A stretch of 64,000 nt of DNA from Eledone cirrhosa (lineage: Eukaryota). The position numbers were made by a program, and so were the translations under genes. The DNA is taken from assembly GCA_964016885.1 (NCBI GenBank), contig OZ024741.1:402132001-402196000 (forward strand), given 5' to 3'. Each line of letters opens with the position of its first letter. Within the stretch, counting starts at the first letter, position 1. Shown one piece after another: positions 29,011 to 53,504 of the stretch. The notes under the pieces were generated by a model. That model ran no database searches. It worked only from the letters and a program-made list of their open reading frames with translations, and had not been told where the DNA came from.

Positions 29011-29156
29011 TTAAGATTTTCCATTTTTTTGTTACATCTTTTGTTTTTGTTTTTGTTTTTTTTCCACGCAGAAACCCATATTTGTACCATCCTGTGCTGT
29101 CCTTGATGTATTTTTTTGTAAACCCTTTGTGGTTAATAAAGAAATCATTATTATTA

Positions 29157-31819: not shown

Positions 31820-32545
31820 TCCTTCTTCTTCATCCACTTATTCCTGACAGAGTCATGAGGGGCAGAGTCCTTAAACACACCTTCCAGTGGGTCTTATCAG
31901 AAGCAACTATCTCCAACTGATCTAGCTGGATCTCCAAATGAGACCAGCAAAGCCCATAGATGTTTTCCAGCTATCTTGCTCGGGGTCTGCTCCTGGGTCT
32001 CCTGCTAGTTGGTTTTGCCCATAAAATCTGTCCAGCAATTATTTCCTGAGACATTCTAACCACATGTCCATAGTATCAGAGCTGTGATCTCTCAATTCAG
32101 AGATTCTTTCCTGAGACATTCTAACCACATGTCTGTAGTATCAGAGCTGTGATCTCTCAATCCAGTGATTCTTGCATGAGACATTCTAACCACATGTCCA
32201 TAGTATCAGAGCTGTGATCTCTCAATTCAGAGATTCTTTCCTGAGACATTCTAACCACATGTCCATAGTATCAGAGCTGTGATCTCTCAATTCAGAGATT
32301 CTTTCCTGAGACATTCTAACCACATGTCCATAGTATCAGAGCTCTGATCTCTCAATTCAGAGATTCTTTCCTGAGACATTCTAACCACATGTCCATAGTA
32401 TCAGAGCTCTGATCTCTCAATTCAGAGAAGTAGCAGCTCTACCTGGAGAGACTCTCTGGTCTCTGAGCTATGCTCTCTCTTGAGTAACATTACTCTATAA
32501 ACCATTCGGAGGTTCCCCATTTCAGCCACTTGCATTCACGATCGT
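31820..32545 (-). mobile_element. RTE family A 3' fragment with an internal 65-bp tandem array (~6 copies, 32036-32428)
   Basis: Unit AGATTCTTTCCTGAGACATTCTAACCACATGTCCATAGTATCAGAGCTGTGATCTCTCAATTCAG at 32231, 32296 and 32361. Confidence 0.82.
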
Positions 32546-32776
32546 TTCAGAGATTAATTTAATTAAATACAAAACATGTATTTAATTTTGCATAGTCACA
32601 CTCAGAAATTGTTTTCAGGGTTTGTTGTAGTCATGGCTGTGTTGTTAAGAAGTTTGCTTCACACCCACGTGGACTTGAGTTCTATCTCACTCTGTGGTTC
32701 CTTCCCCAAGTGTTTTTACTAAAGTCTTGGCCTTGTGTTTGATATTGGTAGCTGGAAACTGATAGAAGACGTTTAA

Positions 32777-34028
32777 CCTTTAACATTTTTTAACATTTAA
32801 ACCAGCTGTATTTGACCAGAATTCTCTCACCACTTTCTGCTCAAACTGGCTGTAAGCAGCCACTCATACTAATGTTAAGGAATTGTTCTCAAAATAAATA
32901 ATATCAATATCTCATAGATTCGATATTATGGGAGGTCATAAATGAACTAAGGGAGAAATTAGGAATAAGAGGGATCAGATGTTGTTTACTCGAGAGAAGA
33001 CTATGTTGGTATGGTCACATGATGCACATGAAAGACGACAGCTGTATAAAAAAGTGCAGGCCGATAAAAATAGACGGTAGTCACGGAGTAGGCAGACCCA
33101 GAAAAACCTGGGACGACTTGATAAATCCGACCTCACTCACTTACACCTCTCCAAGACAATGTCACTGGATCGAGATCTTTGGCGCTACACAGTAGTACAG
33201 AAGACCCGCCTCGCCTAAGTACAAAGCGAAACCTACTACAGTCAGTAGGCACCTCTTAACAAAAATACACCCCCGTCCCTCTACCCCCATCCCATCCACA
33301 CCACCCCTTTCAATGTAAAGTTATGTTGGTACCACAACATCCAGTCCAAATAAATGAGATCGTGTAGGTGTCACCACAAAAACACACAGTCCACGCTGTA
33401 ATGTGGCCGTGTAGGTAGCACAGTAAAAACCTCCCAGTCCACACTGTAAACGTGGTTGGTGTTAGGAAGGGCATCCAACTGTAGAAAACCCGCCAGACAG
33501 TCCTGAGCAAGACAACCAATCTTGCCTCAAGTGGAAAAATTCCCGTCCAAACCCATGCAAGCGTGGAATATGGACGTTAAACGATGATGATGATGATGAT
33601 GATGAAAGCCTTTACTGTGAAAATACAATATTAAGTCGATTGACAAGATCCCAAACCTCATTCGCTTAACAACTGGGGTCGAGCTTGTCAAATCGGACCG
33701 AGGAAACAATGTTTCGATTGATCTTTCCAATTACTAATACTATGTCGGTCGCAAATCTAGGCAGTACAATAGTTTATCTAGAGCTCCCCTCACCATCCTT
33801 CAGGGAAGGCGCCTAATATAGTACAGTTTATAGAGAGCTCCCCTCACCATCCTCCTGGGGAAGAGTGAAGAGGATGAGTGAGAGGCACCGTTAACTCCTT
33901 TCTGACTACATGATGGCTTGCATAACTTTGATCATATATTTGCTGTATATTATATTTATAAGGTTCCTAGCAATAATTAATTGATTATATGTATGTATTT
34001 CTATTTAAGTAATGTAAATGCTAAAGGG
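32777..34028 (-). mobile_element. TTAA-flanked piggyBac-type MITE, family F, interrupted by two insertions
   Basis: TTAA|CCTTTAACATT ... AATGCTAAAGGG|TTAA; pieces match the reverse complement of 44326-44530. Confidence 0.75.
32936..33604 (+). mobile_element. RTE LINE 3' fragment inserted in MITE F
   Basis: INELREKLGIRGIRCCLLERRL.WYGH.., 3'UTR and (TGA)n tail. Confidence 0.88.
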
Positions 34029-34477
34029 TTAAAGACCTTTCAGAGGAACCCCAGTTTGGCTGCTCGTATTTGTGATTGTATTCTTTGGGTCATTACACAG
34101 GTTTCATGACCATATGTAAAAAAAAAACCTCAAAAAAAAAACAAAAAAAAACAAAGGAAATGGGGGTAGGTTTCAGTAAAATCCCTCTTTTATTTATTTA
34201 TTTATCATCTGGGACTCGTTTGTGATTTCATTTTGGAATTCCTGGAACACAAACATTCTCGGATATGTCTGAAACATGAAATTTTTTACATAGGAGAGGA
34301 AGAAGAAAGTTGTGACATTTAACCCTTTAACATTTACATTACTCTATATTTACTATTGTATTTTCACAGTAAAGGCTTTACCTCACATAATATCTCACAT
34401 AACATTTACATTACTCTATATATACTATTGTATTTTCACAGTAAAGGCTTTACCTCACATAATATCTCACATAACAT

Positions 34478-37400
34478 CTCGTATACGAGAGACGTGTGTT
34501 GACGTGTGTGAACAAGCTCGGCTACCGAGTTGGATTTACTTACTCAAAAGTGAGTTTTGATTTATTGTTTTTGTACTGTAATATATGTTAACCCCTTGCC
34601 TGGGTCGTCAGACTTTGAGTTTATTTATTTTCGCCCCTTTTTGGGGCGAATTTTACATTTAAAAATTGATTACAGCAAACTGATAGAAATGGACGGAATT
34701 TTCACATCTCATCCTAACGAGAAAGCCACGCCCTCTAAGAAAGGTGATACAGAGAAGCTAGCAGCACAATGCTCTAAGTCTTCCCTCCTCACGTCTGCAA
34801 AAGAAACATGGAACACGGAATTAAAAGAAAAATTTGTAAAAATGGGTGAAAACCTAGAAAGTCACATAAACGCAGACAAAAACAACAATGACAATAACAG
34901 CACGACCAACAACAGCAACAGTCACAACACCAACCAAGGAAAAAATAACGATAACACCAAACAAAGCGAACCCACTACTAGTGCTTCCTTTGCACAGGCG
35001 GTCCGAAAAACACAGACCTGCAAGCAACTGGACATTACGACTCTGAGAGAAAAGATGAAGGAAGCAAAACAGTATGTAACTTTCAAAGAAGGAGGAGACT
35101 TCACAATCACCTCCCCACAAGAAATCAAAAGAGACACGACACTAAGAACGATATCTTTCAGAACAATTTCCAACATAACAAGGAAACCAGCTCAATTATC
35201 CCAAAAAGAAAATGAGCTGGTCCTAAAAAATGTGTGGAGTGATATATCGTTCATACAAAAAGGGCCACTCTATGGGAATATAACGGTGCTAATGAAGGAT
35301 CAATTGACGGCCAGGAAATACTCTGTGTCGCCAATTGTTTCCAAGCTACACACATTTTCCCCCCACATATTTGGGGAAAAGAACTCAAAAAATAAGAGTC
35401 TCCGGAATCCGGCCAAATGCATGCATTTCCTGGGTACTAAGAGGATTTTTAGAAGACGAGGACGGAATCCTCTCAGTAGGAGAAGTCACCACAGACATTT
35501 TCGGCGGTTTGAGCGTGGAGGTTCTGGTCCAAATGAGACCAGAACGAATAGCTAGAATACCACAGAGGGTGTCCCTCGATGGAGAAACATTTATATACAT
35601 TTCAGCCGAGGGTAGGAGGCCCATATGTTACTACTGTTCAAGCAGGGGTCATCTAAGGGCTGATTGTCTTCAATTGACAAAATAAAAGGCTCTTTTGCCT
35701 ACACCCCACACACCACCACCGCCATCACCACCCCAAAATCCACCCCACCCCAAAACATAACACATACAACAAAACGCAAGCACACACAAGAACAACAAAC
35801 AAACACAACACAAATAAAACAGTATACATACATTAACACAAATAACAAAGAACTAGTAAAAACAATACACAAAGACCCTTCGGTGGAAACTGAAGGGCAA
35901 TTCTTTGCAAGCGCGGCCAACAAACTTTAAAAATGATAAGACTCCCAATGGACACCTATGCAAAACTAAGAGAGAACTTTCCTGAGGACGTGGGGAAAAC
36001 ATGTACTCGACCCTATAACCGCGTCCTCTTGAAACGTTTCCCCACCCACACCTCACCAAACACCCCCACCCACCACAGAACAACACCCCACCAAACAACC
36101 CCTCCAATACGCCCATGGATATTGTGCAACCTGCTCCTCAGGAGCCGAACAGGTAGGTCCTTCCTCTTTTAACCAACATGGCTGATATAAGAGTTGGGTG
36201 TCTGAATGTACGCGGCCTGGGACTGTCTTGGAAACAAGGCAAACTTTTAAACGATCTCAGGTCGCATAGAACGGATGTAATGGTTATTTGCGAGTCCAGG
36301 ATCAGCAGCGAGCGCCAACTGGCGCCCCTCTTCGACGACTTTGAGATCTTCGCATCTCTCTGTCAACCGGGGGTGGGGGTGGAGTTGTCGTTCTGCTGCG
36401 AAAACACCTGGGCCTCGCCATACAGAAGGTGCACCTGGACCCGGAGGGTCGACTGGTGGTTTTAGACATCGGCAGTAGTGAAAGTGGAGCCCTTAGACTA
36501 ATTGCTGTGTACGCCCCTTTTTGGGCAGCGCGGCCGGACTACTTCCAACGTCTGGAAACTTTTCTGGGAACGTCCCGCTCCTTGCTTTTAGTGGGGGACT
36601 GGAATGGTATCCTGGATGCACGTTGGGACTATGTAGGGGCATGTGCCAATAGAGGGGGGTGTAAAAGCCTCAAAAGGTTAATCGGCCGATTTGACCTGGC
36701 CGATAGATATCGACTAGATTTTCCGACTGTACCACTATGGACGTGGACCAATCGCAGCGGAACATCTAGGACGTACCTAGATAGGGTCCTAGTTAGAGAT
36801 AAGGATAGGGACACATTTAGCTGTCCAAAAATGTTCATGGTTGACTATTCGGATCACAAGTTAGTGACCTGCATAGCCAACCTTGATAGAACCCATAGAC
36901 AGGGACCCGGTTACTGGAAGCTGAACTTGTCCTTACCGACAAGCAAAGCTTACAGTAAACGGATTAGCACGTTAGTTAAGCAGTGTTTGACAGGGGCAAT
37001 TGTCAACAACAGGTGGTGGAGCTCTCTTAAGAGAGCAATTAGAATATAATCGATAGGTTTCAGTCAGGAATTAGCAAGGGATAGGAACAAGACGGAAAGG
37101 GAATTAGTAGATAGAGTAGAAGAGGCGATTAGGAGTGGCAATGTAGCCAGCGTGCTGGCATCAAGAATGGCCTTAGACCAGTTCTTTGAGGTGAAGCACG
37201 AAGGCTGCGTTGTCAGGAGTAAAATACGTGGAGTAAAAATGAGGGAGCCAAAGCTGTTAGCTGGGCCCGAGTGACAGAGGCAAAAAGTGGGAACAAGTCC
37301 ACGATTCGGTCTTTGAAGGACAAGGATGAGCGTGTGATCCTTGAACCTGGGCAGATGTGTGCGGCCTTTCAGCAGCACTTTGCACAACTGTTCGGGAGAG

Positions 37401-39822
37401 GGGGCGCGCCGGGTGAGACTATGGATTTCAATCCATACCTCGACGGTCTGCCGCGCCTCTCGGACGCGGAGGCGAAGTCCTGCGAAAGGCCGATTTCAGC
37501 TGCTGAGATAGGGGCGGCGCTGAGCCAATGCGGCAAACGCAAATCCCCGGGTCTCGATGGTCTACCATACGAGCTATATGTAGCGATGCCGGACTTGTTC
37601 TACGATATCCTCGAAGCGGTCTACTGCAACTGGCAGCAGAACGGGAGAATTCCCAGTTCTGTGGCCAAGGGCGTAGTTACGCTGGTGAGGAAGGATGAGA
37701 ACAAGGGGGATGACATAAGTAACTTCAGGCCCATAACACTGCTAAATACAGAGTTAAAGATTTTGGCCAAGGTGTTAGCGAAGAGGTTGGCGCTTGTCGT
37801 TGGAAACCTGGTGGGAGAAGCGCAGACATGCGCAATCCCATTCAGGTCCATTCACGACAATCTCCACCTTATGCGATACATCATAGAGAGGGTAGGGAAT
37901 GAACCCGGCTTTGGTGGGGCCCTGATCAACTTGGATCAATCTAAAGCTTTCGATAGGGTTGACCATCGTTACCTGGATGCGGTGCTCGCGGCGGCAGGCT
38001 TCGGACCCGTTTTCAGGGGTTGGATTGCTGCGATGCACAGCAGCAACGTCTGCTCAAGGGTCAAGGTGAATGGCCACCCCTCGGAGCAGTTCCAAATCAT
38101 GCGATCCATCCGACAGGGATGCCCTCTCTCCTCCCTTCTGTATGTGCTGGCTCTTGAGCCACTACTGCGGAAGTTGGAGCGGTTGTAGGGCATCCCTTTG
38201 GTACCGGGATTGCAGAAAGCGGCGTCGGCCTACGCCGATGACGTGACAGTAATGGTGTCGAGAACCTCGCAAATCGGTGAGATCGGCACCTTACTGGAGG
38301 AATATGAAAGGTTTACAGGAGCCAAGCTGAACCGGGACAAGTCCGTTGGTTTGCAACTCGGAACATGGAGAGGCAAACCGATGCCCTCCAACGACATCGT
38401 CGGACGCTGGACGGAGGCCCGGTGAAGCTGCTTGGGGTCTGGTTCGGACCAGACCTCCAGGTGGAGAAAAACTGGAACGAGGTAACGGCCAGGGTGTTTG
38501 CACTCACCCAGAAGTGGGCCCAGTGCAAACTATCCCTGAAAGGTCGAGCGGAGGTGGCGAACGCTTATATAGCATCCGTCATCTACTACCGCTTGACCGT
38601 CGTGCCTTGCCCAGTGAAAAGATTCGCCAAAATGGAGTGCGCGCTGTTCCAATTTCTTTGGAACAAGCGGACCCCTTTGGTGAGGAGATCCATCTGCTGT
38701 CAACACCCTTCGAAAGAAGGGCTGGGGATGCCGTGGCTACAGATGCGTAAACAGGTATTCCTCACCGGTCAACCGGTGTGGGCCCCGTTTGTGAGGCGAG
38801 CCTTTCCCAGACTCGTCTCGCTCACCGAGCTGCAATCCTGGGTCAAGCAAAGACCGAGAAAAGTGGGCGACTGGCACATTGAATGTGCCTAGGCGCTCAC
38901 GGCCTTCTGGAAAGCGGACCCGGCAATCAGTGGAGACTCCACCTCGACATTCTATAGAGGGTTGGTACGCAGCAGGTGCGACGATGCTCTCGGAGAAGCT
39001 CTAGGCATGGAAGATGAACTGGCCAGTCTGTTCGGTAGGACGTTTGGCCCTGGACCGATGGACAACTTCCAAAAGTCCCTGGCTTGGCAGTGCTACCGAG
39101 GGGCTCTACCCGTTCGAGACAAGCTCCACAGGCATGGGAGCCTGGGTAGGGATCCTTTGAATAAGATCTGTCCGAGATGCGTGCATGACGACGAAACCGT
39201 TGCGCACGCATTCGTACACTGCCCAGGCATTGCTGACCTGTGGGGCTATGTGGAATGACTACTGTCGAGAGTGGGACCAATCCGGTTGACCACCGAGTCC
39301 ATTGTCACGATCAAACCGCCTCCCCCTTTCAAAAACGAAGGAGAGGCGGTTTTTCTCTGTGTGATAGCCATGGCTAAAGACGTTGTATGGTGGACGAGGC
39401 TGAAAGGGCTGAGGTCAGACACCTTTCTCTCCGGCCAACAACTGGTCCCCTTTTTCAAATACCATTTTAAAAGAAGGATCAGAATGGAGAGAGAGGTGCT
39501 CTACCCCAGCAAGTTTTATGAAAGGTGGGTGAAAGTAGGGAGAATGGCCAGAGTGAATGGGTCTTCTCTCTATATCAGCCTGTAGGTGAAAGAAGAGGAA
39601 AAAGAGGAGACGAGGGAAGCACCTACTCTTTGTGCTCCAGAGGAGAAGGGTTGCACATTTTTTCCGGGGTGTGTGCGACCCATGTTAATGCCCTCTCCCT
39701 ATTGAGGACTCCGTTTGTTGTTGTTATTTCATTGTTATATTTTTGTACTCGTTAATTATATATGTAAACTTCCCCCCTTGTATCTGTCCCTACCTTTTGT
39801 GCCCTGGTGGCAAATAAAGAAA
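34478..39822 (+). mobile_element. Near full-length L1/Tx1-clade LINE, inactivated
   Basis: ORF1 from 34689 with CCHC knuckle CYYCSSRGHLRADC; ORF2 from 36178; 3'UTR ends AATAAAGAAA. Confidence 0.92.
36178..39585 (+). pseudogene. Tx1-type ORF2 (APE endonuclease, RT, C-terminal Zn motif)
   Basis: GCLNVRGL, GDWN, YLDR, SDHK, GPGYWKLN; KSPGLDGLP, FRPITLLNTELKIL, LDQSKAFDRVDH, RQGCPLS, AYADDV; CPRC..ETVAHAFVHC; several stops and frameshifts. Confidence 0.92.
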
Positions 39823-40198
39823 TTACTCTATATATACTATTGTATTTTCACAGTAAAGGCTTTACCTCACATAATATCTCACATAACATTTACATTACTC
39901 TCTATATACTATTGTATTTTCACAGTAAGGTCTTTACCTCACATAATATCTCACATAACATTTACATTACTCTATAGATACTATTGTATTTTCACAGTAA
40001 AGTCTTTACCTCACATAATATCTCACATAACATTTACATTACTCTATATATACTATTGTATTTTCACAGTAAAGTCTTTACCTCACATAATATCTCACAT
40101 AACATTTACATTACTCTCTATATACTATTGTATTTTCACAGTAAGGTCTTTACCTCACATAATATCTCACATAACATTTACATTACTCTATAGATACT

Positions 40199-42667
40199 GG
40201 AGGGAAGCTAGGAGACAAGTGTACTTCGCAAGAAGGGAAGCAGAGGAAAGAAAGTTCAAGCATGTTCTACAACGTGAGGACCAAAAACGTGAGGTGTTCA
40301 GGATTGCCAGGCAATGTGTCAAGGAAAACCGTGATATTGTCGGGGAGAAGTGTGTACTTAACGATGATGGCATACTTGCCATCACCGACGCTGATAAGAA
40401 GGTAGCTTGGAAGTGTCACTATGAAAGGCTTCTAAATGAGGAGAACAAATGGGAGAAAGACAGTCTCCCCCAGATCGATCCAATAGAGGGACCAGCAGTG
40501 TTAGTTGAAGGTAGTATAATAAGTAAGGCAATCAAAGATATGAAGACGGGTAAGGCGGCTGGGCCTTCGGAAATAGTTGCTGAGATGCTGAAGGCATCTG
40601 GTTCGGTGGGACACACCATGGTCACCCGGATAGTTAACCAAGTCGTACAGAATGGGGTTGTTCCGAAGGAATGGCGTAGCAGCATCATCGTTAACTGCTA
40701 TAAGGGAAAAGGAGATGCCCTAGATAGGAGTAACTATAGAGGCATTAAATTAATCGACCAGGTCATGAAGGTCACGGAAAAAGTAATAGCGCAACTAATC
40801 AGAGAGAGAATTGATCTAGATGAAATGCAGTTCGGGTTTGTGTCAGGCAAAAGTACCACAGACGCTCTTTTCATTGTACGACAACTACAGGAGAAGTACC
40901 TAGCTAAAAGTAAACCCCTATACTTAGCTTTCGTCGACTTGGAGAAAGCCTTCGACAGAGTCCCCCGTTCCATTATCTGGTGGTCTCTTAGAAAACTAGG
41001 TGTTGACGAATGGCTTGTGAGAGCTATACAAGCCATGTATAAAGAAACAGTCAGTAAGGTTAGAATTAACAACGAATATAGTGAAGAGTTTAGCGTAAAA
41101 GTTGGTGTCCATCAGGGCTCTGTTCTTAGCCCCCTACTATTTATTATTGCCCTTCAGGCTATAACAGAGGAGTTCAAGACCGGCTGCCCATGGGAACTCC
41201 TATACGCAGATGATCTAACGCTCATAGCTGAATCAATGACCGAACTAGAGAAGAAATTCCAAACGTGGAAGCACGGCCTAGAATCAAAAGGCCTTAAAAT
41301 TAACCTGGCTAAGACTAAAGTTCTAGTTTGTAGGAAAGAAAATAAGGCGGCGGTCCCATCGGGGAAATGGCCATGCTCAGTGTGTAGGAAAGGCGTAGGT
41401 AGAAACTCCATTTTATGTCCCAAATGCAAAGTATGGGTGCATAAAAGATGTAGTGGGATCACAGGTAAGCTAACTAAGAACATAGATTTTACATGTGGCC
41501 GGTGCTCTGGTGCAATAAGTAGCAGCAAGTGCCCACAAAATACTAGCTCCTTCAACTGCGCAGAGGGTTCTATAGAAATAGTGGACAGCTTCCGTTATCT
41601 GGGTGACAAAATCAGCAGTGGGGGAGGGTGCTCTGAAAGTACAGTAGCTAGAGTCAGAACTGGATGGAAAAAGTTCAGAGAGCTTATACCACTATTAGCC
41701 GCTAGAGGGTTCTCCCTAAAAATGAAAGGCAGGTTATACGATGCCTGCATACGAACAGCAATGCTGCATGGCAGTGAGACCTGGGCATTGTGTGCAGAGG
41801 ATATACGCAGACTAGAGAGGAACGAAGCTTGCATGCTCCGCTGGATGTGCAATAGTAATATACGTGAACGGCAAAGCATAAACGAACTAAGGAAAAAATT
41901 AGAAATAAGAGGGATCAGATGTTGTTTACTCGAGAGAAGGCTACGTTGGTACGGTCACGTGATGCGCATGAAAGACGACAGCTGTATAACAAAGTGCAGG
42001 GCAATAAAGATAGACGGTAGCCACGGAGTAGGCAGACCCAGAAAAACATGGGACGAGCTGATAAATTCCGACCTCACACGCTTACACCTCTCCAAGACAA
42101 TGTCACTGGACCGAGACCTTTGGCGGTACTCAGTAATAGAGAAGACCCGCCTTACCTAAATACAAAGTAAAAAACCTACTACAGTCAGTAGGCATCTCTA
42201 TCAAAACACACCCCCGTCCCACCACCTCCACCCCAACCACACCGCCCCTTTCAATGTAAAGTTATGTTGGTCCCACAACATCCAGGCCGAAACAAATGAG
42301 ATCGTGTAGGTGTCACGACAAAAAAACACACAGTCCACGCTGTAAATGTGGCCGTGTAGGCAACACGGTAAAAACCTCCCAGCCCCACACTGTAAATGTG
42401 GTTGGTGTTAGGAAGGGCATCCAGCTGTAGAAAACCCGCCAGACAGTCCACGCTGTAATGTGGCCGTGTAGGCAACACGGTAAAAACCTCCCAGCCCCAC
42501 ACTGTAAATGTGGTTGGTGTTAGGAAGGGCATCCAACTGTAGAAAACCCGCCAGACAGTCCTATGCGAGCAAGACAACCACTCTTGCCTCAAGTGGGAAA
42601 ACCCCCGTCCAAACCCATGCAAGCGTGGAACACGGACGCTAAACCTGATGATGATGATGATGATGAT
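40199..42667 (+). mobile_element. 5'-truncated RTE LINE with an uninterrupted RT reading frame
   Basis: Frame open 40199-42159 (NYRGIKL, QFGF, FVDLEKAFDRVPR, GVHQGSVLSPLLF, LYADDL, PHD, RRLRWYGHV); 3'UTR with ~115-bp duplication; (GAT)n tail; possible TSD GATACT at 40193 and 42668. Confidence 0.95.
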
Positions 42668-42886
42668 GATACTATTGTATTTTCACAGTAAAGTCTTTAC
42701 CTCACATAATATCTCACATAACATTTACATTACTCTATATATACTATTGTATTTTCACAGTAAAGTCTTTACCTCACATAATATCTCACATAACATTTAC
42801 ATTACTCTATATATACTATTGTATTTTCACAGTAAAGGCTTTACCTCACATAATATCTCACATAACATTTACATTACTCTATATAT

Positions 42887-42951
42887 GTCCAAACCCATGC
42901 AAGCGTGGAACACGGACGTTAAACGTTGATGATGATGATGATGATGATGAT
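42887..42951 (+). mobile_element. Very short RTE 3' tail within the satellite
   Basis: GTCCAAACCCATGCAAGCGTGGAACACGGACGTTAAACG(TGA)n, nearly identical to 42607-42667. Confidence 0.85.
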
Positions 42952-43902
42952 ACTATTGTATTTTCACAGTAAAGTCTTTACTTCACATAATATCTCACAT
43001 AACATTTACATTACTCTATATATACTATTGTATTTTCACAGTAAAGGCTTTACCTCACATAATATTTCACATAACATTTACATTAATCTATATATACTAT
43101 TGTATTTTTACAGTAAAGGCTTTACCTTACATAATATCTCACATAACATTTACATTACTCTACATATACTATTGTATTTTCACAGTAAAGGCTTTACCTC
43201 ACATAATATCTCGCATAACATTTACATTACTCTCTATATACTATTGTATTTTCACAGTAAAGGCTTTACCCCACATAATATCTCACATAACATTTACATT
43301 ACTCTCTATATACTATTGTATTTTCACAGTAAAGGCTTTACCCCACATAATATCTCACATAACATTTACATTACTCTATATATACTATTGTATTTTCACA
43401 GTAAAGTCTTTACCTTACATAATATCTCACATAACATTTACATTACTCTATATATACTATTGTATTGTCACAGTAAAGGCTTTACCTCACATAATATCTC
43501 ACATAACATTTACATTACTCTATATATACTATTGTATTTTCACAGTAAAGGCTTTACCTTACATAATTATCTCACATAATATCGAATCAATGAGATTTTG
43601 ATGTTATTTATTTTGAGAACAATACCTTAACATTAGTATGAGTGGCCAGTTACAGCTGGTTTGAACAGAAAGAGATGGAGAGTTCTGGCCGGATATGGCT
43701 GGTTTAAATGATAAAGGTTAAGGCCCCACCCCACCTCCAGAGCCTTAGTGATGTAAGTAGCTTCAGGTATGTATCACTGATATTGTTCTTGGATTTCTCC
43801 AGGAAAATATGTATAAGGCATATAACAGTTTTGAGTAGAATTTTTAATATCATAAGTAAGAATAATTATACAAATTGTAGGGTCGAATCAACTTGTCTTA
43901 AA

Positions 43903-44096
43903 TAATTGTTTCTACTTTTGGCACAAGGCCAGCAATTATACCAGTACATTACAGGTACTTTATTTTATCGACCCCGTAAGGATGAAAGGCAAAGTTAACC
44001 TCAGCGGGATTTGAACTCAGACCATAAAGGGCCGTAACTCTTTGCTGCAAAGCATGGTGTCCGACCCTCTACCGATACTGCCAATCCACCGCCCTT
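43903..44096 (-). mobile_element. SINE family D, full length
   Basis: Reverse complement of the 11805-12000 unit. Confidence 0.88.
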
Positions 44097-44325
44097 GTGT
44101 TAAATAATGGAATATGTTTTGTGCTTCTGAAGAAAGAAGAGAAAGTATTCTTCTTCTGAAGAGCACCTACCATTACTAGACTAGGGACATAGGCCTGAAC
44201 TGTGTGGGAGGTTTTGTTTTAGCTATACAGTTCACAAATGTGAGAAATAATTCTATACAGTTTACAAATGTGAGAATGAATTAAGTTTATGATCCAAGGT
44301 TCCACTGTATTTTAAATTACTTTAA

Positions 44326-44530
44326 CCCTTTAGCATTTATATTACTCTATTGGATTTTCATGGTAAGCACTTACATAGTATCTCCCAAAATATCAAATCT
44401 AAGAGATTTTGATATTATTTATTTTGAGAACAATACCTTAACATCAGTATGAGGGGCAAGTTACAACTGATTTGAACAGGAAAAGGTGAGATAATTCTGG
44501 CCGCATATGGCTGGTTTAAATGCTAAAGGG
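44326..44530 (+). mobile_element. MITE family F monomer (205 bp, piggyBac-type)
   Basis: TTAA TSD on both sides; 14-bp TIR CCCTTTAGCATTTA/TAAATGCTAAAGGG. Confidence 0.88.
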
Positions 44531-44711
44531 TTAACATTTTATTATCATATAACAAATATATAAGATTAAATAGAAATACATACATATAATCAATTAATTA
44601 TTGCTAGGAACCTTATAAATATAATATACAGCAAATATATGATCAAAGTTATGCAAGCCATCATGTAGTCAGAAAGGAGATAACGGTGCCTCTCACTCAT
44701 CCTCTTCACTC

Positions 44712-45440
44712 TTCCCCAGGAGGATGGTGAGGGGAGCTCTCTATAAACTCTACTATATTAGGCCCCTTCCCTGAAGGATGGTGAGGGGAGTTCTAGATAA
44801 ACTCTACTATATTAACCCCTTCCCTGAAGGATGGTGAAGGAAGCTCTATAAACTTTACTATATTAACCACCTCCCCTTCAGAGGATTATGAGGGGAAACT
44901 CTCTATAAACTCTTCTATATTAACCCTCTTTCCCCTTCTGGAGGATGGTGATGGGAACTCTCCATAAATTCTACTATATCATGCACCTCCTTCCTTGGAG
45001 GATGGTGAGTGAAACTCTCTATAAACTTTACTATATTAACCCCCTCCCCTGGAGGATTATGAGAGGAAACTCTCTATAAACTCAACTATATTAACCCCTT
45101 CCCCCTCTGGAGGATGTTGAAGGAAGCTCTTTATAAACTCTACTATATTATCCCCCCCTCCCACTGGAAGCTCTCTATAAACTTTACAATATTAAACACC
45201 TGCCCTTCGGAGGATGGTGAGAGGAACTCTCTATAAACTCTACTATATTAACCTCCCTCCCACTGGAAGATTATGAGAGGAACTCTCTATAAATTCTATT
45301 ATATTACCACCTCCCCCTCTGGAGGATGGTGAGAGGAACTCTCTATAAACTCAACTATATAACCCCCCCCCTCTGTCCTCCAGAGTATAGCGAGAGGAAC
45401 TCTCTATAAATTCTTCTATATTAACCACCCCTCCCTCAAA
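44712..45440 (+). repeat. ~45-55-bp degenerate minisatellite (~14 copies)
   Basis: Unit like CCCTCTGGAGGATGGTGAGGGGAACTCTCTATAAACTCTACTATATTAACC; its first units and upstream flank (44567-44805) recur inverted at 33770-34007. Confidence 0.88.
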
Positions 45441-45657
45441 CTTTACTTTATTTTGTATTCAATTTTGTTGTTGCTTTGGAATAAATAATTTAGCACAGAC
45501 TGGTAATTTCCTGTCAGCTCTGAATATAGATATCATATTTTAGGATCAAATATGTCAGCATCTCATTTGAATTAGATAAATAAATAGATAGATATCACAA
45601 CTCCCTACCCCGCTACATAAAGTCTCCTTTCAATTAATGATTTCTGATGTATCTATA

Positions 45658-45995
45658 CGAGGATCGGTCGAAAACTTCATATGCTGACCAAGATAATCTC
45701 ATGGAATGTCCAAATGAGGTTTATTTTTCAACATAGTCCCTAGAAAGAAACAATGCAGTTATTAATAAGAAGAGTTGAAATTAATGCATACAAGATTTCA
45801 CGGCTCTAGCATCACTCCTTCATAGGCTGACCAAAATACTCTCATGGAATCCCCAAATGAGGTTTATTTTTCAACACAGTCTAAGGAAATAAACAATGTA
45901 GTTAATAAGAAGAGTTGAAATAAATGTATATAAGGTTTCACAGCTCTAGCACCACTCCTTCGTAGTCAGCCTATGAACCTTTCAGCCGACCCTTG
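45658..45995. mobile_element. Tc1/mariner-type MITE with two internal units, inverted relative to 12391-13003
   Basis: TA|CGAGGATCGGTCGAAAACTTCATATGCTGAC ... GTCAGCCTATGAACCTTTCAGCCGACCCTTG. Confidence 0.78.
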
Positions 45996-47624
45996 AATCT
46001 CTCATTCATCGACTACATTTATTTATGTGCTCTCCATCAAAGTAAACCATCTTTAGGAAATTCTGCCGTTCTATATTCCTCAGTTCTCAATATCTAGGGT
46101 AACGTCTTTACCATTTTGTCCGTGGGGCGCAGCTGAGACACCACTCAGACTAGGGTGTAGTGTATGTTTCTTTCGTTGCTTGATCCTTTTTTCTTTCAAT
46201 CTCCTTTCCCCCTATCCCTTTTTGTTCCCTTTAAAAATGTGTGTTGTTTTTATTAGATACAGTTCAATTATTTTTATATAATTATCACGACATTGTAAGG
46301 TTTCCTATATTGAATAATGTTAGTTTTACATTTCAATTATCTTATAATAAAAAGTCTGCTTCAATTAGAAAATAAACGGATTCTTTCTTTATTTATAATG
46401 TCCGACTGCCGAGAGAAAGGGCGTAGAGAGTTGTGAAGAGTCGGGTAGCTACGTTACCCTCCTCACATAAATAATGGAAAACCAAAACAAAAAAAAACCC
46501 CCTCAAAACGAGGAGTTGACTGGGTGGAGGTAAGGTGTAGTGGAGAGGAAGGAATGGAGTAGGTAGATGTCGAAGAACCAGGGTAGATAGGTAGGGAGTG
46601 AGGAGGGGAGGGGACCCCCAGGTTAGGGTTTATAGTAGTTTTCGAGGAATACGGCAGCAATATCGTGTAGGTTTGCACTGAATCGTGGTGGTAGTGGCGG
46701 CAGAGGTAGTAAGTATATCATAGAATTATTACCACTATCAGTTAGTCCTGCAGTTAGTTCTATGTGTCCATGAGAAAGGCATGAACATCATATAATCTCG
46801 TTTACATTCACTCTATGATAGAAGTAACAAATGATTATTCTGTGTAGCGAAACATAGAATGGAAAGCTTCCCCTCAATTCTCCAGCAATCTCTACCACAT
46901 CCCACCGACCATCTATATATTACTCAGCGAACCAACATCCCCTTTACTCCACCCCCTATCTCTACTACCCCCCTCACACCCAACCGCCACTCCCCTCCTT
47001 CTCTTTATTTTTCTTTCTGTTCGTAAAACTAGTACAGACCAGGACGGTACTGTTGTTGGTTTTATTTAGTATAAGCGTAAGGCCTTTAGCGACAGCAGAG
47101 CAGTGTTACCGGCACCGAAACTAGGTGTTATATATTCTCAGCAGCTCGCCATAGACGAAGGAACGATAGATACATAGAAAGAAATGAAGGAGGAGAGAGA
47201 AAAAAGATAGAAAGAACGAACATAAATAACGTAAGAACACAATTGAAAAATTTAATTAATTATTTTACAAACAATTTCAAAATAATACGTGAAAGAAAGA
47301 AAGAAAAAGATAATTTTTATATATAATAACAATATCGTGAAATAAATATATATTTATATATAATTTTAATATAAAAATAGTATTAATATAAGCAAACGGA
47401 CGACGAAGGAAAACAATATATGTTATTTATTATTTACTGGTTTCTGTGGAGATGTTGATGTTATTTTAAAAGAAAATTAAGTATTGTTTGAAGCCACTAA
47501 CTGCCAGGTTTGTTAAATTAGTTGGTTGCTGAGGAGGAGGCCAGCAGACTCCAACATCAACTCTATTGATATTATATATTATCTTTATTATCTCTCCTCA
47601 GTCTAGCAACAGTTGTGTATCCAC

Positions 47625-48845: not shown

Positions 48846-51199
48846 TCTGTCTGTCTGTCTCTCTCTCTCTCTGTCTGTCTGTCTGTCTCTCTCTCTCATC
48901 AACATTCTGACCTTTATTTATTGGCTATTAAAACAAAAACAAAAGAAAAAGGATGACCTGCTTTTTATTTGCAGTATAAGCTTTTGTTTATTGTTAAACT
49001 ACCCCAAGTCTATCTGTATTTATCTATATATCTACCTGTCTGTCTCTAAGTCTCTCTCTACCTGTCTGCTCTGTATTTATCTTTCTCTAAGTCTCTCTAT
49101 CTGTCTTTCTCTCTCTATGGTCGTTTTTGTTCCCTCCTATTTTCTTTCCTTCTCTCTCTCTCTCATCATATATTTCGGTGTGTTATATTTATAAAGTTCC
49201 TAGCAATAGTTAATTATAACTATTATGTGTTTATATTTTCATTCTGAAAGAATTGTGAACAATTAGTAATGTTATTTATACAGCTGCGAATAAAATATCT
49301 CTCTGTCTATCTCTCTGTCTCTCTACCTTCTCTCTTTATCTCTCTATCTCGTGTGTGAAAAGTTTTCATTCTTATATATGTGTATATATATATGTATATC
49401 GATGTGTATATATATGTGTATATAGATGTATATATATATGTGTATATATATGTATGTATATGTATGTGTATATATATGTGTATATAGATGTATATATATA
49501 TGTGTATGTATATGTGTATATATATGTGTATATATGTGTATATATATGTGTATATATATGTGTATATATATGTGTATATATATGTGTATATATGTATATA
49601 TATATGTATGTATGTATGTATATATGTATATGTATATGTATGTATATATGTATATGTATATGTATGTATATATGTATATGTATATGTATGTATGTATGTA
49701 TATATGTATATGTATATATGTATGGATATATGTATATATATATATGTATATATGTATGTATATATATATGTATGTATGTATATATGTATATATATATGTA
49801 TATATATATGTATGTATATATGTATATATATATATGTATGTATATATATATGTATGTATATATATATGTATATATATATGTATATATATATGTATATATG
49901 TATGTATATATATATGTATGTATATATATATGTATATATATATGTATATATATATGTATATATATATGTATATATATATGTATGTATATATATATGTATA
50001 TATATATGTATATATATATGTATATATATATGTATGTATATATATATGTATATATATATGTATATATATATATATGTATATATATATGTATATATATATA
50101 TATGTATATATATATGTATATATATATGTATGTATATATATATGTATATATATATGTATGTATATATATATGTATATATATATGTATGTATATATATATG
50201 TATGTATATATATATGTATATATATATGTATGTATATATATATGTATATATATATGTATGTATATATATATGTATATATATATGTATGTATATATATATG
50301 TATATATATATGTATGTATATATATATGTATATATATATGTATGTATATATATATGTATATATATATGTATGTATATATATATGTATATATATATGTATG
50401 TATATATATATGTATATATGTATATATGTATATATGTATATATGTATGTATATATATATGTATATATGTATATATGTATGTATATATATATGTATATATG
50501 TATGTATATATGTATGTATATATATATGTATATATGTATGTATATATATATGTATATATGTATGTATATATGTATGTATATATATATGTATATATGTATG
50601 TATATATATATGTATGTATGTATATATATATGTATATATGTATGTATATATATATGTATATATGTATGTATATATATATGTATGTATGTATATATATATG
50701 TATATATGTATGTATATATATATGTATATATGTATGTATATATATATGTATATATATATGTATATATGTGTGTATATATGTATATATATATGTATATATG
50801 TGTGTATATATGTATGTATATATGTGTGTATATATGTATATATATATGTATATATATATGTATATATGTATGTATATATGTATGTATATATGTATGTATA
50901 TATGTGTTATATATGTATGTATATATGTGTATATATATGTATGTATATATGTGTATATATATGTATGTATATATGTGTATATATATGTATGTATATATGT
51001 GTATATATATGTATGTATATATGTGTATATATATGTATGTATATATGTGTATATATATGTATGTATATATGTGTATATATATGTATGTATATATGTGTAT
51101 ATATATGTATGTATATATGTATGTATATATGTATGTATATATGTATATATATATGTATGTATGTATGTATATGTATGTATATATATGTATGTATGTATG

Positions 51200-51230
<31 letters not shown>

Positions 51231-51293
51231 GTATATATATGTATGTATGTATATATGTGTATATATGTATATATATGTATGTATGTATATATG

Positions 51294-51328
<35 letters not shown>

Positions 51329-51797
51329 GTATATATATGTATGTATATATGTATATATATGTATGTATATATGTATATATATGTATGTATATGTATGTAT
51401 ATATGTATATATATGTATGTATATATGTATATATATGTATGTATATGTATGTATATATGTATATATATGTATGTATATATATATATATGTATATATATGT
51501 ATGTATATATATATGTATGTATATATGTATGTATATATGTATGTATGTATATATATGTATATGTATGTATGTATATATATGTATATATATGTATGTATAT
51601 ATATGTATATATATGTATGTATGTATATATATGTATATATATATGTATGTATATATATGAATATATATATATATGTATGTATATATATGAATATATATAT
51701 ATATGTATGTATATATGTATATATATATATATATGTATGTATATATGTATATATATATATATATGTATGTATATATGTATATATATATATATGTATG

Positions 51798-51974
51798 TAA
51801 CGAAGGAAATGTGGTAAGGAACCAGGTGGACCATAACGCACCAAAGTACTCAATACTTGAGGTAGTAGAGTGGGTAATAGGAACCAGTAAGACCCCGACA
51901 GCTGAGCTCAAGCCGTTTCGAATTAGCCGTCGAAACGGCTTGAGCTCAGCTGTCGGGGTCTTACTGGTTCCTAT
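51798..51974 (+). repeat. Short element ending in a perfect ~45-bp-arm hairpin (51877-51974)
   Basis: ATAGGAACCAGTAAGACCCCGACAGCTGAGCTCAAGCCGTTTCGA-ATTAGCCG-TCGAAACGGCTTGAGCTCAGCTGTCGGGGTCTTACTGGTTCCTAT. Confidence 0.9.
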
Positions 51975-52023
51975 ATATGTATGTATATATATATATGTAT
52001 ATATGTATATATATGTATATATG

Positions 52024-52060
<37 letters not shown>

Positions 52061-52106
52061 GTATGTATATATGTATATATATATATATGTATGTATATAT
52101 ATGTAT

Positions 52107-52146
<40 letters not shown>

Positions 52147-52334
52147 GTATATATATGTATGTATATATATATATGTATATATATGTATGTATATATATAT
52201 ATGTATATATATGTATATATATATATATGTATATATATGTATATATATATATATGTATGTATATATGTATATATATATATATGTATGTATATATATGTAT
52301 ATATATATATATATATGTATGTATATATATGTAT

Positions 52335-52374
<40 letters not shown>

Positions 52375-52577
52375 GTATATATATATATATATGTATGTAT
52401 ATATATGTATATATATATATATATGTATGTATATATATGTATATATATATATATATGTATGTATATATATGTATATATATATGTATATATATATATATAT
52501 GTATGTATATATATGTATATATGTATGTATATATATGTATATATATGTATATATATATATATGTATATATATATATG

Positions 52578-52624
<47 letters not shown>

Positions 52625-52625
52625 G

Positions 52626-52742
<117 letters not shown>

Positions 52743-52779
52743 GTATGTATATATATATATATGTATATATATATGTATG

Positions 52780-52862
<83 letters not shown>

Positions 52863-52871
52863 GTATATATG

Positions 52872-52974
<103 letters not shown>

Positions 52975-52975
52975 G

Positions 52976-53064
<89 letters not shown>

Positions 53065-53065
53065 G

Positions 53066-53116
<51 letters not shown>

Positions 53117-53117
53117 G

Positions 53118-53333
<216 letters not shown>

Positions 53334-53342
53334 CATATATAC

Positions 53343-53378
<36 letters not shown>

Positions 53379-53399
53379 GTATATATATATGTATATATG

Positions 53400-53434
<35 letters not shown>

Positions 53435-53435
53435 G

Positions 53436-53501
<66 letters not shown>

Positions 53502-53504
53502 TGT

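What the first reader, a model, noticed from the sequence alone, without database searches (positions are those of the whole stretch)
34319..44534. A 205-bp TTAA MITE gave rise to a 72-bp satellite that hosts a Tx1-clade LINE and RTE insertions
Seen: the monomer at 44326-44530 (TTAA TSD, 14-bp TIR) has the same ends as a 9.4-kb structure at 34323-43717. In the latter, the segment just inside the left TIR is amplified ~19 times, and a 5.3-kb Tx1-type LINE and RTE copies sit inside the array. A third copy (32777-34028) also carries insertions in this same segment. Established: Xenopus Tx1L inserts site-specifically into internal tandem repeats of TTAA-flanked non-autonomous DNA transposons, forming composite Tx1C. 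Inference: this may be an analogous composite, a LINE riding a MITE-borne satellite and potentially mobilisable as one unit because both TIRs remain. One insertion does not prove specificity, and a similar 3' tail (..AATAAAGAAAT) at ~29060-29150 lies outside the satellite.
Basis: partly seen in the sequence, partly recalled or inferred. Interest (0 to 1): 0.72.

Follow-up and report, generated by a model that had tools for sequence, protein, structure and literature searches.

The report
Site-specific LINE in piggyBac MITE satellite
About 340 copies of a young jumping gene in what is likely an octopus-type genome sit at one exact spot of a 72-letter repeat inside a much older small DNA transposon; they likely arrived one by one rather than riding the transposon, and each full-length copy likely carries about 25 letters of its own target at its front end to finish the insertion.

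Summary
The anatomy is confirmed. A piggyBac-derived MITE (13,282 exact left ends) has its first segment amplified to 19.0 units here and holds a decayed 5.35-kb L1/Tx1-group LINE and two RTE pieces. The LINE is target-specific: 342 of 447 exact tail matches continue into one register of the unit, and the misses examined were sister families. Four 5'-truncated copies have 2-13-bp target duplications, the mark of independent retrotransposition. The 'mobile composite' idea is not supported: in 44 loci the LINEs differ by a median 1.5% and their MITE right ends by 16%, with no pair under 5%, and this copy's right TIR lacks a terminal G. In 5'-complete copies the last ~25 nt of the upstream unit lose the local array variants (kept 0 of 6). 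The RNA therefore likely carries a target-derived head that joins by homology, as many R2 elements do. The scan already reported this family elsewhere in the same genome (e1-8809848, e1-9817998, e1-9536372). This report adds the negative composite test and an unexplained likeness of array units across loci.

The parts
34319..34322 (.). TTAA target duplication, left
   Evidence: sequence
34323..34336 (+). Left TIR of the expanded MITE (14 bp, CCC end)
   Evidence: the monomer TIR matches the TIR of a 2.57-kb piggyBac at 13 of 14 bases
34328..34477 (+). 72-bp array, piece 1 (2.1 units)
34453..34477 (+). Last ~25 nt of the unit next to the LINE; likely the element-borne 5' head (inferred)
   Evidence: shared neighbour variants kept 0 of 6 beyond unit position 40; variants at positions 44-65 in 6 of 68 such units against 332 of 792 others
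34478..39824 (+). Body of the L1/Tx1-group LINE; decayed copy (125 substitutions in 5,327 aligned bases against copy L052, a 286-bp deletion, several frameshifts)
34689..36156 (+). ORF1 remnant (in intact copy L052: 580 aa, one CCHC knuckle, Pro/Thr-rich tail)
   Evidence: zf-CCHC E 0.007, below the curated cut-off; limits read from the sequence
36178..39585 (+). ORF2 remnant (in L052: 1,145 aa, AP endonuclease + RT + zf-RVT)
   Evidence: limits read from the sequence
39586..39824 (+). 3' UTR with no poly(A); ends in a two-pyrimidine tag (TT here; CC 41, TT 17, TC 14 among 72 copies)
39825..40198 (+). 72-bp array, piece 2 (5.2 units), starting at the target register
40199..42670 (+). 5'-truncated RTE-type LINE (RT + PHD frame, TGA tail, about 5-6-bp duplication)
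42671..42886 (+). 72-bp array, piece 3 (3.0 units)
42887..42951 (+). 65-bp RTE 3' tail at the same register as the long RTE piece
42952..43579 (+). 72-bp array, piece 4 (8.7 units)
43580..43717 (+). Right part of the MITE; the right TIR (43705-43717) lacks one terminal G
43718..43721 (.). TTAA target duplication, right
44326..44530 (+). MITE monomer, 205 bp, perfect 14-bp TIR, TTAA at 44322 and 44531
32777..34028 (-). Third MITE copy with an RTE 3' piece (32937-33605) and an unrelated insert (about 33635-34008)

Best explanation
This is one decayed copy of a young LINE family whose copies sit at one register of a 72-bp repeat inside an older piggyBac-derived MITE; the copies likely inserted one by one by target-primed reverse transcription, and full-length copies likely finish by pairing a target-derived head of about 25 nt with the target. 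Steps: (1) Shown: a ~220-bp non-autonomous piggyBac spread long ago; in some loci, mostly near chromosome ends on the contigs listed, its first segment is a tandem array. (2) Inferred from junctions: the LINE endonuclease nicks at or within two bases of TT^AC in the unit, and the RNA 3' end is copied there. (3) Shown as a pattern: 5'-truncated copies have short, variable target duplications. (4) Inferred: a complete cDNA ends in a copy of the last ~25 or more bases of the unit. This anneals to the target downstream of the nick, so every complete copy has the same 5' junction, gains one extra unit on its left, and overwrites local variants in that unit's last part. (5) Inferred: the specificity came from GATA/TATC-seeking sister families, since both targets have TCTAT five bases after the element's tail. 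The MITE ends are passive; the composite is a nest, not a vehicle.
For: Specificity: 29 of 30 best 3'-end loci run into the array in register, and the 30th matches 11 nt. 342 of 447 exact tails are followed by the register. In a position-ordered sample, 20 of 20 copies with this family's tail were on target; the other 10 of 30 had different tails and other flanks, mostly TATC/TC-rich, and 8 of those 10 aligned upstream at only 73-86%. 5' junction: the same in 41 of 41 and 30 of 30 (the samples overlap) and 328 genome-wide. Independent arrival: 13 tails lacking an exact 5' motif were fetched; 4 were 5'-truncated, with duplications of 2, 6, 9 and 13 bp, one of them in a monomer right behind the TIR. 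In 44 loci (946 pairs) LINE distance had median 1.5% and MITE right-end distance median 16.1%, minimum 5.3%; Mantel r -0.02, p 0.56. Three tandem copies in one cluster differ by 24-31 of 1,501 bases and have different 3' tags. Head: variants shared by both neighbours are kept in the unit left of the LINE 0 of 6 times beyond position 40, against 6 of 13, 6 of 9, 9 of 10 and 7 of 12 in control trios. Variants at positions 44-65 occur in 6 of 68 such units against 332 of 792 others (p 8e-9), while the right neighbour is ordinary (25 of 64). In L185, a former monomer, the left unit repeats the target's five private variants up to position 34 and then switches to the family form. L240, L245 and L248 show the same switch inside divergent arrays. 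Known parallel: R2 elements whose RNA keeps upstream 28S bases have uniform 5' junctions (PMC3774820 abstract). MITE origin: a 2.57-kb TTAA piggyBac with stop-free 561-aa frames shares the TIR at 13 of 14 bases and about 69% over ~150 bp. Sisters: endonuclease 72-74% and RT 84-85% identical.
Against: No RNA was seen, so the head and the transcript start are inferred from DNA alone. The informative counts beyond position 40 are small (6, 7 and 9 events, not independent of each other). Up to position 40 the left unit keeps only 13 of 26 shared variants, so the switch point varies or later array turnover blurs it. The left and right neighbour units are not more alike than other units (identical in 4 of 38), so a long duplication is visible only in L185. 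The fold-back between head and body is weak (4.2% of head shuffles fold as well; 2 of 4 sisters fold likewise). Only 44 of about 340 composites were compared, so a rare co-transposition is not excluded: 26 of 44 keep an intact right terminus and stop-free transposase frames exist. L056 has the full-length left junction but lacks 3.9 kb; it could be a truncation at a fixed top-strand cut rather than an internal deletion. No tree with named Tx1 families could be built.
Confidence: 0.75

Rival explanations
1. The LINE is site-specific but carries no head: the top strand is cut 7 bases upstream of the first nick (target truncation), and the conserved 25 bases are simply the sequence the enzyme demands.
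For: Between the left and right junction 5-7 target bases are formally missing, and left and right units are not duplicates on average. L056 has the same left junction without the 5' body. Target truncation is a known outcome (PMC4494074 passage).
Against: Four truncated copies show duplications, not deletions. L188 inserted behind the TIR, where that upstream sequence is absent. No 5' junction directly on the TIR was seen in any sample. L185 duplicates private variants, and L240, L245 and L248 have the family form inside arrays of another form.
Confidence: 0.15
2. LINE plus array plus TIRs moved as one piggyBac-mobilised composite, which would also explain the uniform junctions and the high share of complete copies.
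For: About 95 of the first 100 listed copies keep the 5' end (read from position lists, not all fetched), which is unusual for a LINE. Internal deletions are common. Stop-free transposase frames with a matching TIR exist.
Against: 0 of 946 pairs have MITE ends under 3% apart, while 191 pairs have LINEs under 1% apart, with ends a median 16.7% apart. The ends around LINEs are as diverged as those of monomers (16-17%). The right TIR is damaged in this copy. Truncated copies have their own duplications.
Confidence: 0.04
3. The repeat is the LINE's own transduced tail: read-through RNA delivers downstream units, so the LINE seeds the arrays.
For: Array units are more alike across loci (5.1% at non-hypervariable positions) than the same segment is among monomers (12.7%). 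LINEs and arrays share the distal regions.
Against: Loci do not share rare variants in the same order downstream (37 same-rank against 30.5 shifted, 2,485 pairs). Many arrays have private variants on both sides of the LINE. Closed arrays without a LINE exist. There are 36,174 exact unit junctions against about 340 LINEs.
Confidence: 0.06

Closest known systems
Tx1L of Xenopus laevis in Tx1D (PMC4494074 passage; PMC1950540 passages)
   Same: AP-endonuclease LINE with a specific site inside a non-autonomous piggyBac family.
   Different: Different host (likely an octopod) and target. No evidence here that the nest moves as a unit. Complete copies show a target-like head instead of a fixed short duplication. 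Relationship to Tx1L was not measured.
Crocodilian Tx1-Mar (Mariner-N4_AMi) and Tx1-9_AMi (Harbinger) (PMC4494074, parts 3 and 4 of 5 read)
   Same: Tx1 families that prefer a spot in an older DNA transposon. That paper also used 5'-truncated copies (of SINEU-3) to argue against hitchhiking, and raised transcription from the flanking transposon.
   Different: Those are old (85-87% to consensus), looser, and use Mariner or Harbinger. This family is young (median 1.5% apart), register-exact, and aims at a tandem unit.
R2 elements with upstream 28S sequence on the RNA (PMC3774820, abstract and outline only)
   Same: Uniform 5' junctions, explained by annealing of target-derived bases on the first strand to the target.
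   Different: R2 uses a restriction-like endonuclease (recalled) and an HDV-like ribozyme. Here the enzyme is AP-type, Rfam found no ribozyme at E<=1, and the target is a selfish repeat.
Kibi, Koshi and crocodilian microsatellite-seeking Tx1 families (PMC4494074 passages)
   Same: Sister families in this genome end in TATC/TC-rich repeats.
   Different: The family here has left microsatellites for a complex 72-bp unit.

Membership tests
L1/Tx1-group non-LTR retrotransposon | ORF2 with AP endonuclease, RT and C-terminal cysteine-rich zinc motif; L1-like RT | tested here: met
   Pfam PF03372, PF00078, PF13966 on copy L052; best solved relative is human LINE-1 ORF2p, E 1e-53, against 3e-23 for R2
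Tx1 clade | Type I-like ORF1 (CCHC knuckle, RRM) rather than Transposase_22 (PMC5203782 passages) | tested here: inconclusive
   One CCHC motif is visible, zf-CCHC E 0.007 below the cut-off, no Transposase_22 hit; RRM not shown, single-sequence model pLDDT 38.7
Tx1 clade | RT groups with named Tx1 families on a tree | not testable with these tools
   No named Tx1 sequence was returned; closest named protein is an Argonauta hians hypothetical protein, 68% in the RT region
Target-specific Tx1 elements | Most copies at one position of a multicopy target, inserted independently | tested here: met
Target-specific Tx1 elements | The encoded endonuclease nicks the target specifically | not testable with these tools
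   Needs a nicking assay like those in PMC1950540
Non-autonomous piggyBac (MITE) | TTAA duplication, CCC...GGG termini, no coding capacity, autonomous partner with shared ends | tested here: met
   partner of 2.57 kb with PF13843, TIR 13 of 14, about 69% over ~150 bp
   0 of 946 pairs; Mantel p 0.56 (first test on 22 loci p 0.43)
R2-like 5' joining by homology | Uniform 5' junction with target-derived bases that travel with the element | tested here: met
   At DNA level only:
R2-like 5' joining by homology | RNA 5' end lies in target sequence, set by a ribozyme or a start site | tested here: inconclusive
   No Rfam ribozyme hit; the RNA end itself was not observed

The most novel reading that the evidence does not exclude
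The LINE drives concerted evolution of a dispersed satellite. Each complete insertion overwrites part of a target unit with the donor's version; recombination between the two units that bracket the LINE removes it without a scar; array turnover then spreads the converted unit. This would explain why array units at unlinked loci are 5% apart, while the same segment in monomers is 13% apart and the MITE ends around the arrays are 14-16% apart, and why closed LINE-free arrays (L138, L297, L298, L299) have the same unit type. The parasite would be maintaining its own landing pad.
Probability: 0.2. Interest if true: 0.75.

Novelty: new variant of a known kind. Interest (0 to 1): 0.5.

Why it matters
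It is a young, register-exact AP-endonuclease LINE with stop-free copies (L039 and L052, 2 of 40 loci with both frames open) and close sister families with other targets. That makes two open questions testable: how such enzymes are retargeted, and how the 5' end of a LINE is joined. The nest also repeats the Xenopus Tx1L/Tx1D arrangement in a mollusc, and here the hitchhiking idea could be tested and failed. The general habit (Tx1 aiming at other transposons) is known, and this scan has already noted the family on other DNA of this genome, which limits the surprise.

Tried and rejected
Co-transposition of composites: rejected for 22 and then 44 loci; masking CpG-like columns leaves the ends a median 14.4% apart. 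A fixed 65-bp target duplication: not seen on average (left and right unit identical in 4 of 38). 3' transduction of several units: no excess of shared rare variants in the same order. The tail at 29060-29150 as an off-target copy: no alignment to the LINE's 3' end. RTE as a dedicated second resident: a hot spot used by several TGA-tailed families in monomers and arrays; no genome-wide denominator was obtained. Ribozyme at the 5' end: only one weak unrelated Rfam hit in 32500-46000. ORF1 structure: low-confidence model, not searched further. L066 as a 5'-transduced daughter of L239: their bodies are closer to each other than to L052 only in the first 700-base block, so dropped. Expression: no RNA holder listed. 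Names for relatives by cluster look-up: this query could not be made. Primary Tx1L papers PMC85248 and PMC362770: not held. Search of earlier notes by protein sequence: nothing. Dropped rows: 7 loci were left out (L045, L180, L182, L188, L189, L190, L192: truncated, rearranged or tandem), and only the 44 of 72 with a right end of over 100 bases inside the fetched stretch were paired. In one search, L059 was cut to its first left unit because of a parsing error.
Full report
Observation. A 205-bp monomer (44326-44530) has a perfect 14-bp TIR and TTAA on both sides. A 9.4-kb structure (34323-43717) has the same ends, with the segment behind the left TIR repeated 19.0 times in four pieces. Inside it lie a 5,347-bp LINE (34478-39824) and two RTE pieces. 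A third copy on the minus strand has other inserts in the same segment. The right TIR of the long structure has lost a terminal G. The look-alike tail near 29100 is not this family.

Host and MITE. The genome has 3.0 Gb. The closest named protein to ORF2 is from Argonauta hians, 68% in the RT region, so the host is likely an octopod. The MITE's left end occurs 13,282 times exactly. Of 50 left ends taken in order along C1, 10 of 30 in the first 31 Mb start an array and 0 of 20 at 31-33 Mb do. The tandem junction occurs 36,174 times. All 9 arrays chosen by that junction have a left TIR at or shortly before their start, and 8 of 9 end in the MITE's right part. A 2.57-kb TTAA piggyBac with stop-free 561-aa transposase frames shares the TIR at 13 of 14 bases and about 69% over ~150 bp of one end. 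So the host element is a non-autonomous piggyBac.

The LINE. Copies L039 and L052 (2 of 40 loci examined) have both frames open. ORF2 is 1,145 aa with AP endonuclease, RT and zf-RVT, nearest to human L1 ORF2p among solved structures. ORF1 has a CCHC motif and no Transposase_22 hit, which fits the Type I-like ORF1 that PMC5203782 links with Tx1 (passages). A tree with named Tx1 families was not possible. The window's copy is dead: 2.3% from L052, with a 286-bp deletion and several frameshifts.

Specificity. 29 of the 30 best 3'-end loci run straight into the array at one register, and the 30th matches 11 bases. Genome-wide, 342 of 447 exact tail matches do so. In a position-ordered sample, all 20 copies with this family's tail were on target; the other 10 of 30 had variant tails and other flanks, mostly TATC/TC-rich, and 8 of those 10 aligned upstream at 73-86%. 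Three sisters have endonucleases 72-74% and RT 84-85% identical. Both kinds of target show TCTAT five bases after the tail, which suggests (inference) that the unit mimics an older microsatellite target. The 5' junction is the same in 41 of 41 and 30 of 30 cases (overlapping samples) and 328 times genome-wide.

Arrival one by one, not as a composite. I fetched the 13 listed tails that lacked an exact 5' motif nearby and had not been seen before. Nine kept the 5' end; four were 5'-truncated, with target duplications of 2, 6, 9 and 13 bases starting at the register. One of the four sits in a monomer directly behind the TIR. In 44 loci with a right MITE end, LINEs differ by a median 1.5% and the ends by 16.1% (minimum 5.3%). 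191 pairs have LINEs under 1% apart, yet their ends are a median 16.7% apart, and no pair of 946 has ends under 3% apart; Mantel p 0.56 (p 0.43 on the first 22 loci). The ends around LINEs are as old as those of monomers. Movement as one unit is therefore not supported, though 26 of 44 keep an intact right terminus and a rare event is not excluded. Tandem LINEs in one array arise both ways: three copies in one cluster differ by 24-31 of 1,501 bases, while six in another differ by 0-6 and two of them are identical over that stretch.

The 5' head. About 95 of the first 100 listed copies keep their 5' end, often despite internal deletions (partly read from position lists). The sequence before the body always ends in the unit's last bases. 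In 71 parsed loci, variants shared by both neighbouring units are kept in the left unit 13 of 26 times up to position 40 and 0 of 6 times beyond it; control trios keep 6 of 13, 6 of 9, 9 of 10 and 7 of 12 beyond it. Positions 44-65 vary in 6 of 68 left units against 332 of 792 other units (p 8e-9) and 25 of 64 right neighbours. L185 was a monomer: its left unit repeats five private variants of the target up to position 34 and then takes the family form. L240, L245 and L248 show the family form at the junction inside arrays of another form. The simplest reading is that the RNA starts in the unit and that the cDNA copy of these bases anneals to the target, as postulated for R2 elements whose RNA keeps up to 36 upstream 28S bases (PMC3774820, abstract). 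Against it: no RNA was seen, the decisive counts are small, left and right units are not duplicates on average, the head-body hairpin is weak, and Rfam shows no ribozyme. The rival is a fixed upstream top-strand cut with strict sequence demand; it does not explain the duplications of truncated copies, the insertion behind the TIR, or L185.

RTE pieces. Both RTE tails in the array end at one AT site of the unit. This recurs 128 times exactly, from several TGA-tailed families, in monomers as well as arrays. RTE pieces are also common elsewhere in the window, so this is a hot spot, not a home.

Unexplained. Array units at different LINE-bearing loci are 7.4% apart (5.1% with ten hypervariable positions masked), barely more than within an array (4.5% and 3.4%). 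The same segment in 40 monomers is 18.8% apart (12.7% masked). Four closed LINE-free arrays have the shared type, while others have private types. Read-through delivery of several units found no support. Target choice, ectopic conversion, or repeated overwrite-and-loss by the LINE could each produce this; the last is my novel case (0.2).

Comparison and novelty. It works like Xenopus Tx1L in the piggyBac Tx1D and like crocodilian Tx1-Mar (PMC4494074: passages and parts 3 and 4 of 5; PMC1950540: passages), with an R2-like 5' join. It is an L1/Tx1-group element by domains; Tx1-clade membership is likely but untested on a tree; it fails the test for a mobile composite. Seven literature searches listed no paper whose title or abstract start describes this family; I saw only listings for most hits. 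Repbase and Dfam were not searchable, and the supplements of PMC4494074, which list Tx1 targets, were not read. The scan's own notes report the same family and the same head idea on other pieces of this genome. I read them, and they are not independent support. Verdict: a real, young, target-specific LINE; new variant of a known kind; interest 0.5.

Noticed in passing
window 33771-34008 and 44566-44803: An inverted copy, 98.3% identical over 238 bp, of the start of another repeat element that carries a 56-bp satellite (44715-45430) sits inside the third MITE copy; the likeness suggests a recent local copy.
   Followed up: no
window 49373-63555: A TA-rich simple-repeat tract of about 14 kb fills the end of the window.
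   Followed up: no
G000:C1:4221000-4260500 (L072-L077, L290-L292): Six LINE copies in tandem inside one MITE array, 0-6 differences per 1.5 kb, one spacer of exactly 67 bases; similar runs on C10 near 40.7 and 41.4 Mb.
   Followed up: partly
L066 and L239 (G000:C1, about 10.98-11.03 Mb): Two nearby inverted loci share part of a ~1.2-kb LTR-bounded element, 17 unrelated bases, one unit and the LINE 5' end; L066 has an extra 150-bp LINE 5' piece in front. Likely a local repair or template-switch event. In L239 the left unit is wholly of the family form while the right units are a divergent type.
   Followed up: partly
G000 C1-C3: LINE copies on the three largest contigs lie only in the first ~31 Mb and the last ~22 Mb, while MITE left ends are denser just inside (70 in 31-49 Mb against 30 in 0-31 Mb of C1).
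   Followed up: partly
L180, L184, L195 and others: Many copies keep both ends but have one to three internal deletions with short microhomologies; possibly template jumps that rescue the 5' join.
   Followed up: no
L293-L295, near 1100-1330: Sister families begin directly after TATC repeats, and in 2 of 4 their first bases fold back on those repeats.
   Followed up: partly
L039, L059, L183, L164; L131, L136: Other elements also enter the segment at or near its TATATA stretch; they look like a Helitron-type and mariner-type elements (labels recalled, not tested).
   Followed up: no
L223 (G000:C1:34023794-34027074): A full-length piggyBac has a MITE monomer abutting its end at a shared TTAA, with further MITE pieces on the other side.
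   Followed up: no
window 29060-29150: A 3' tail of another element with a similar last dozen bases, followed by (ATT)n; family not identified.
   Followed up: partly
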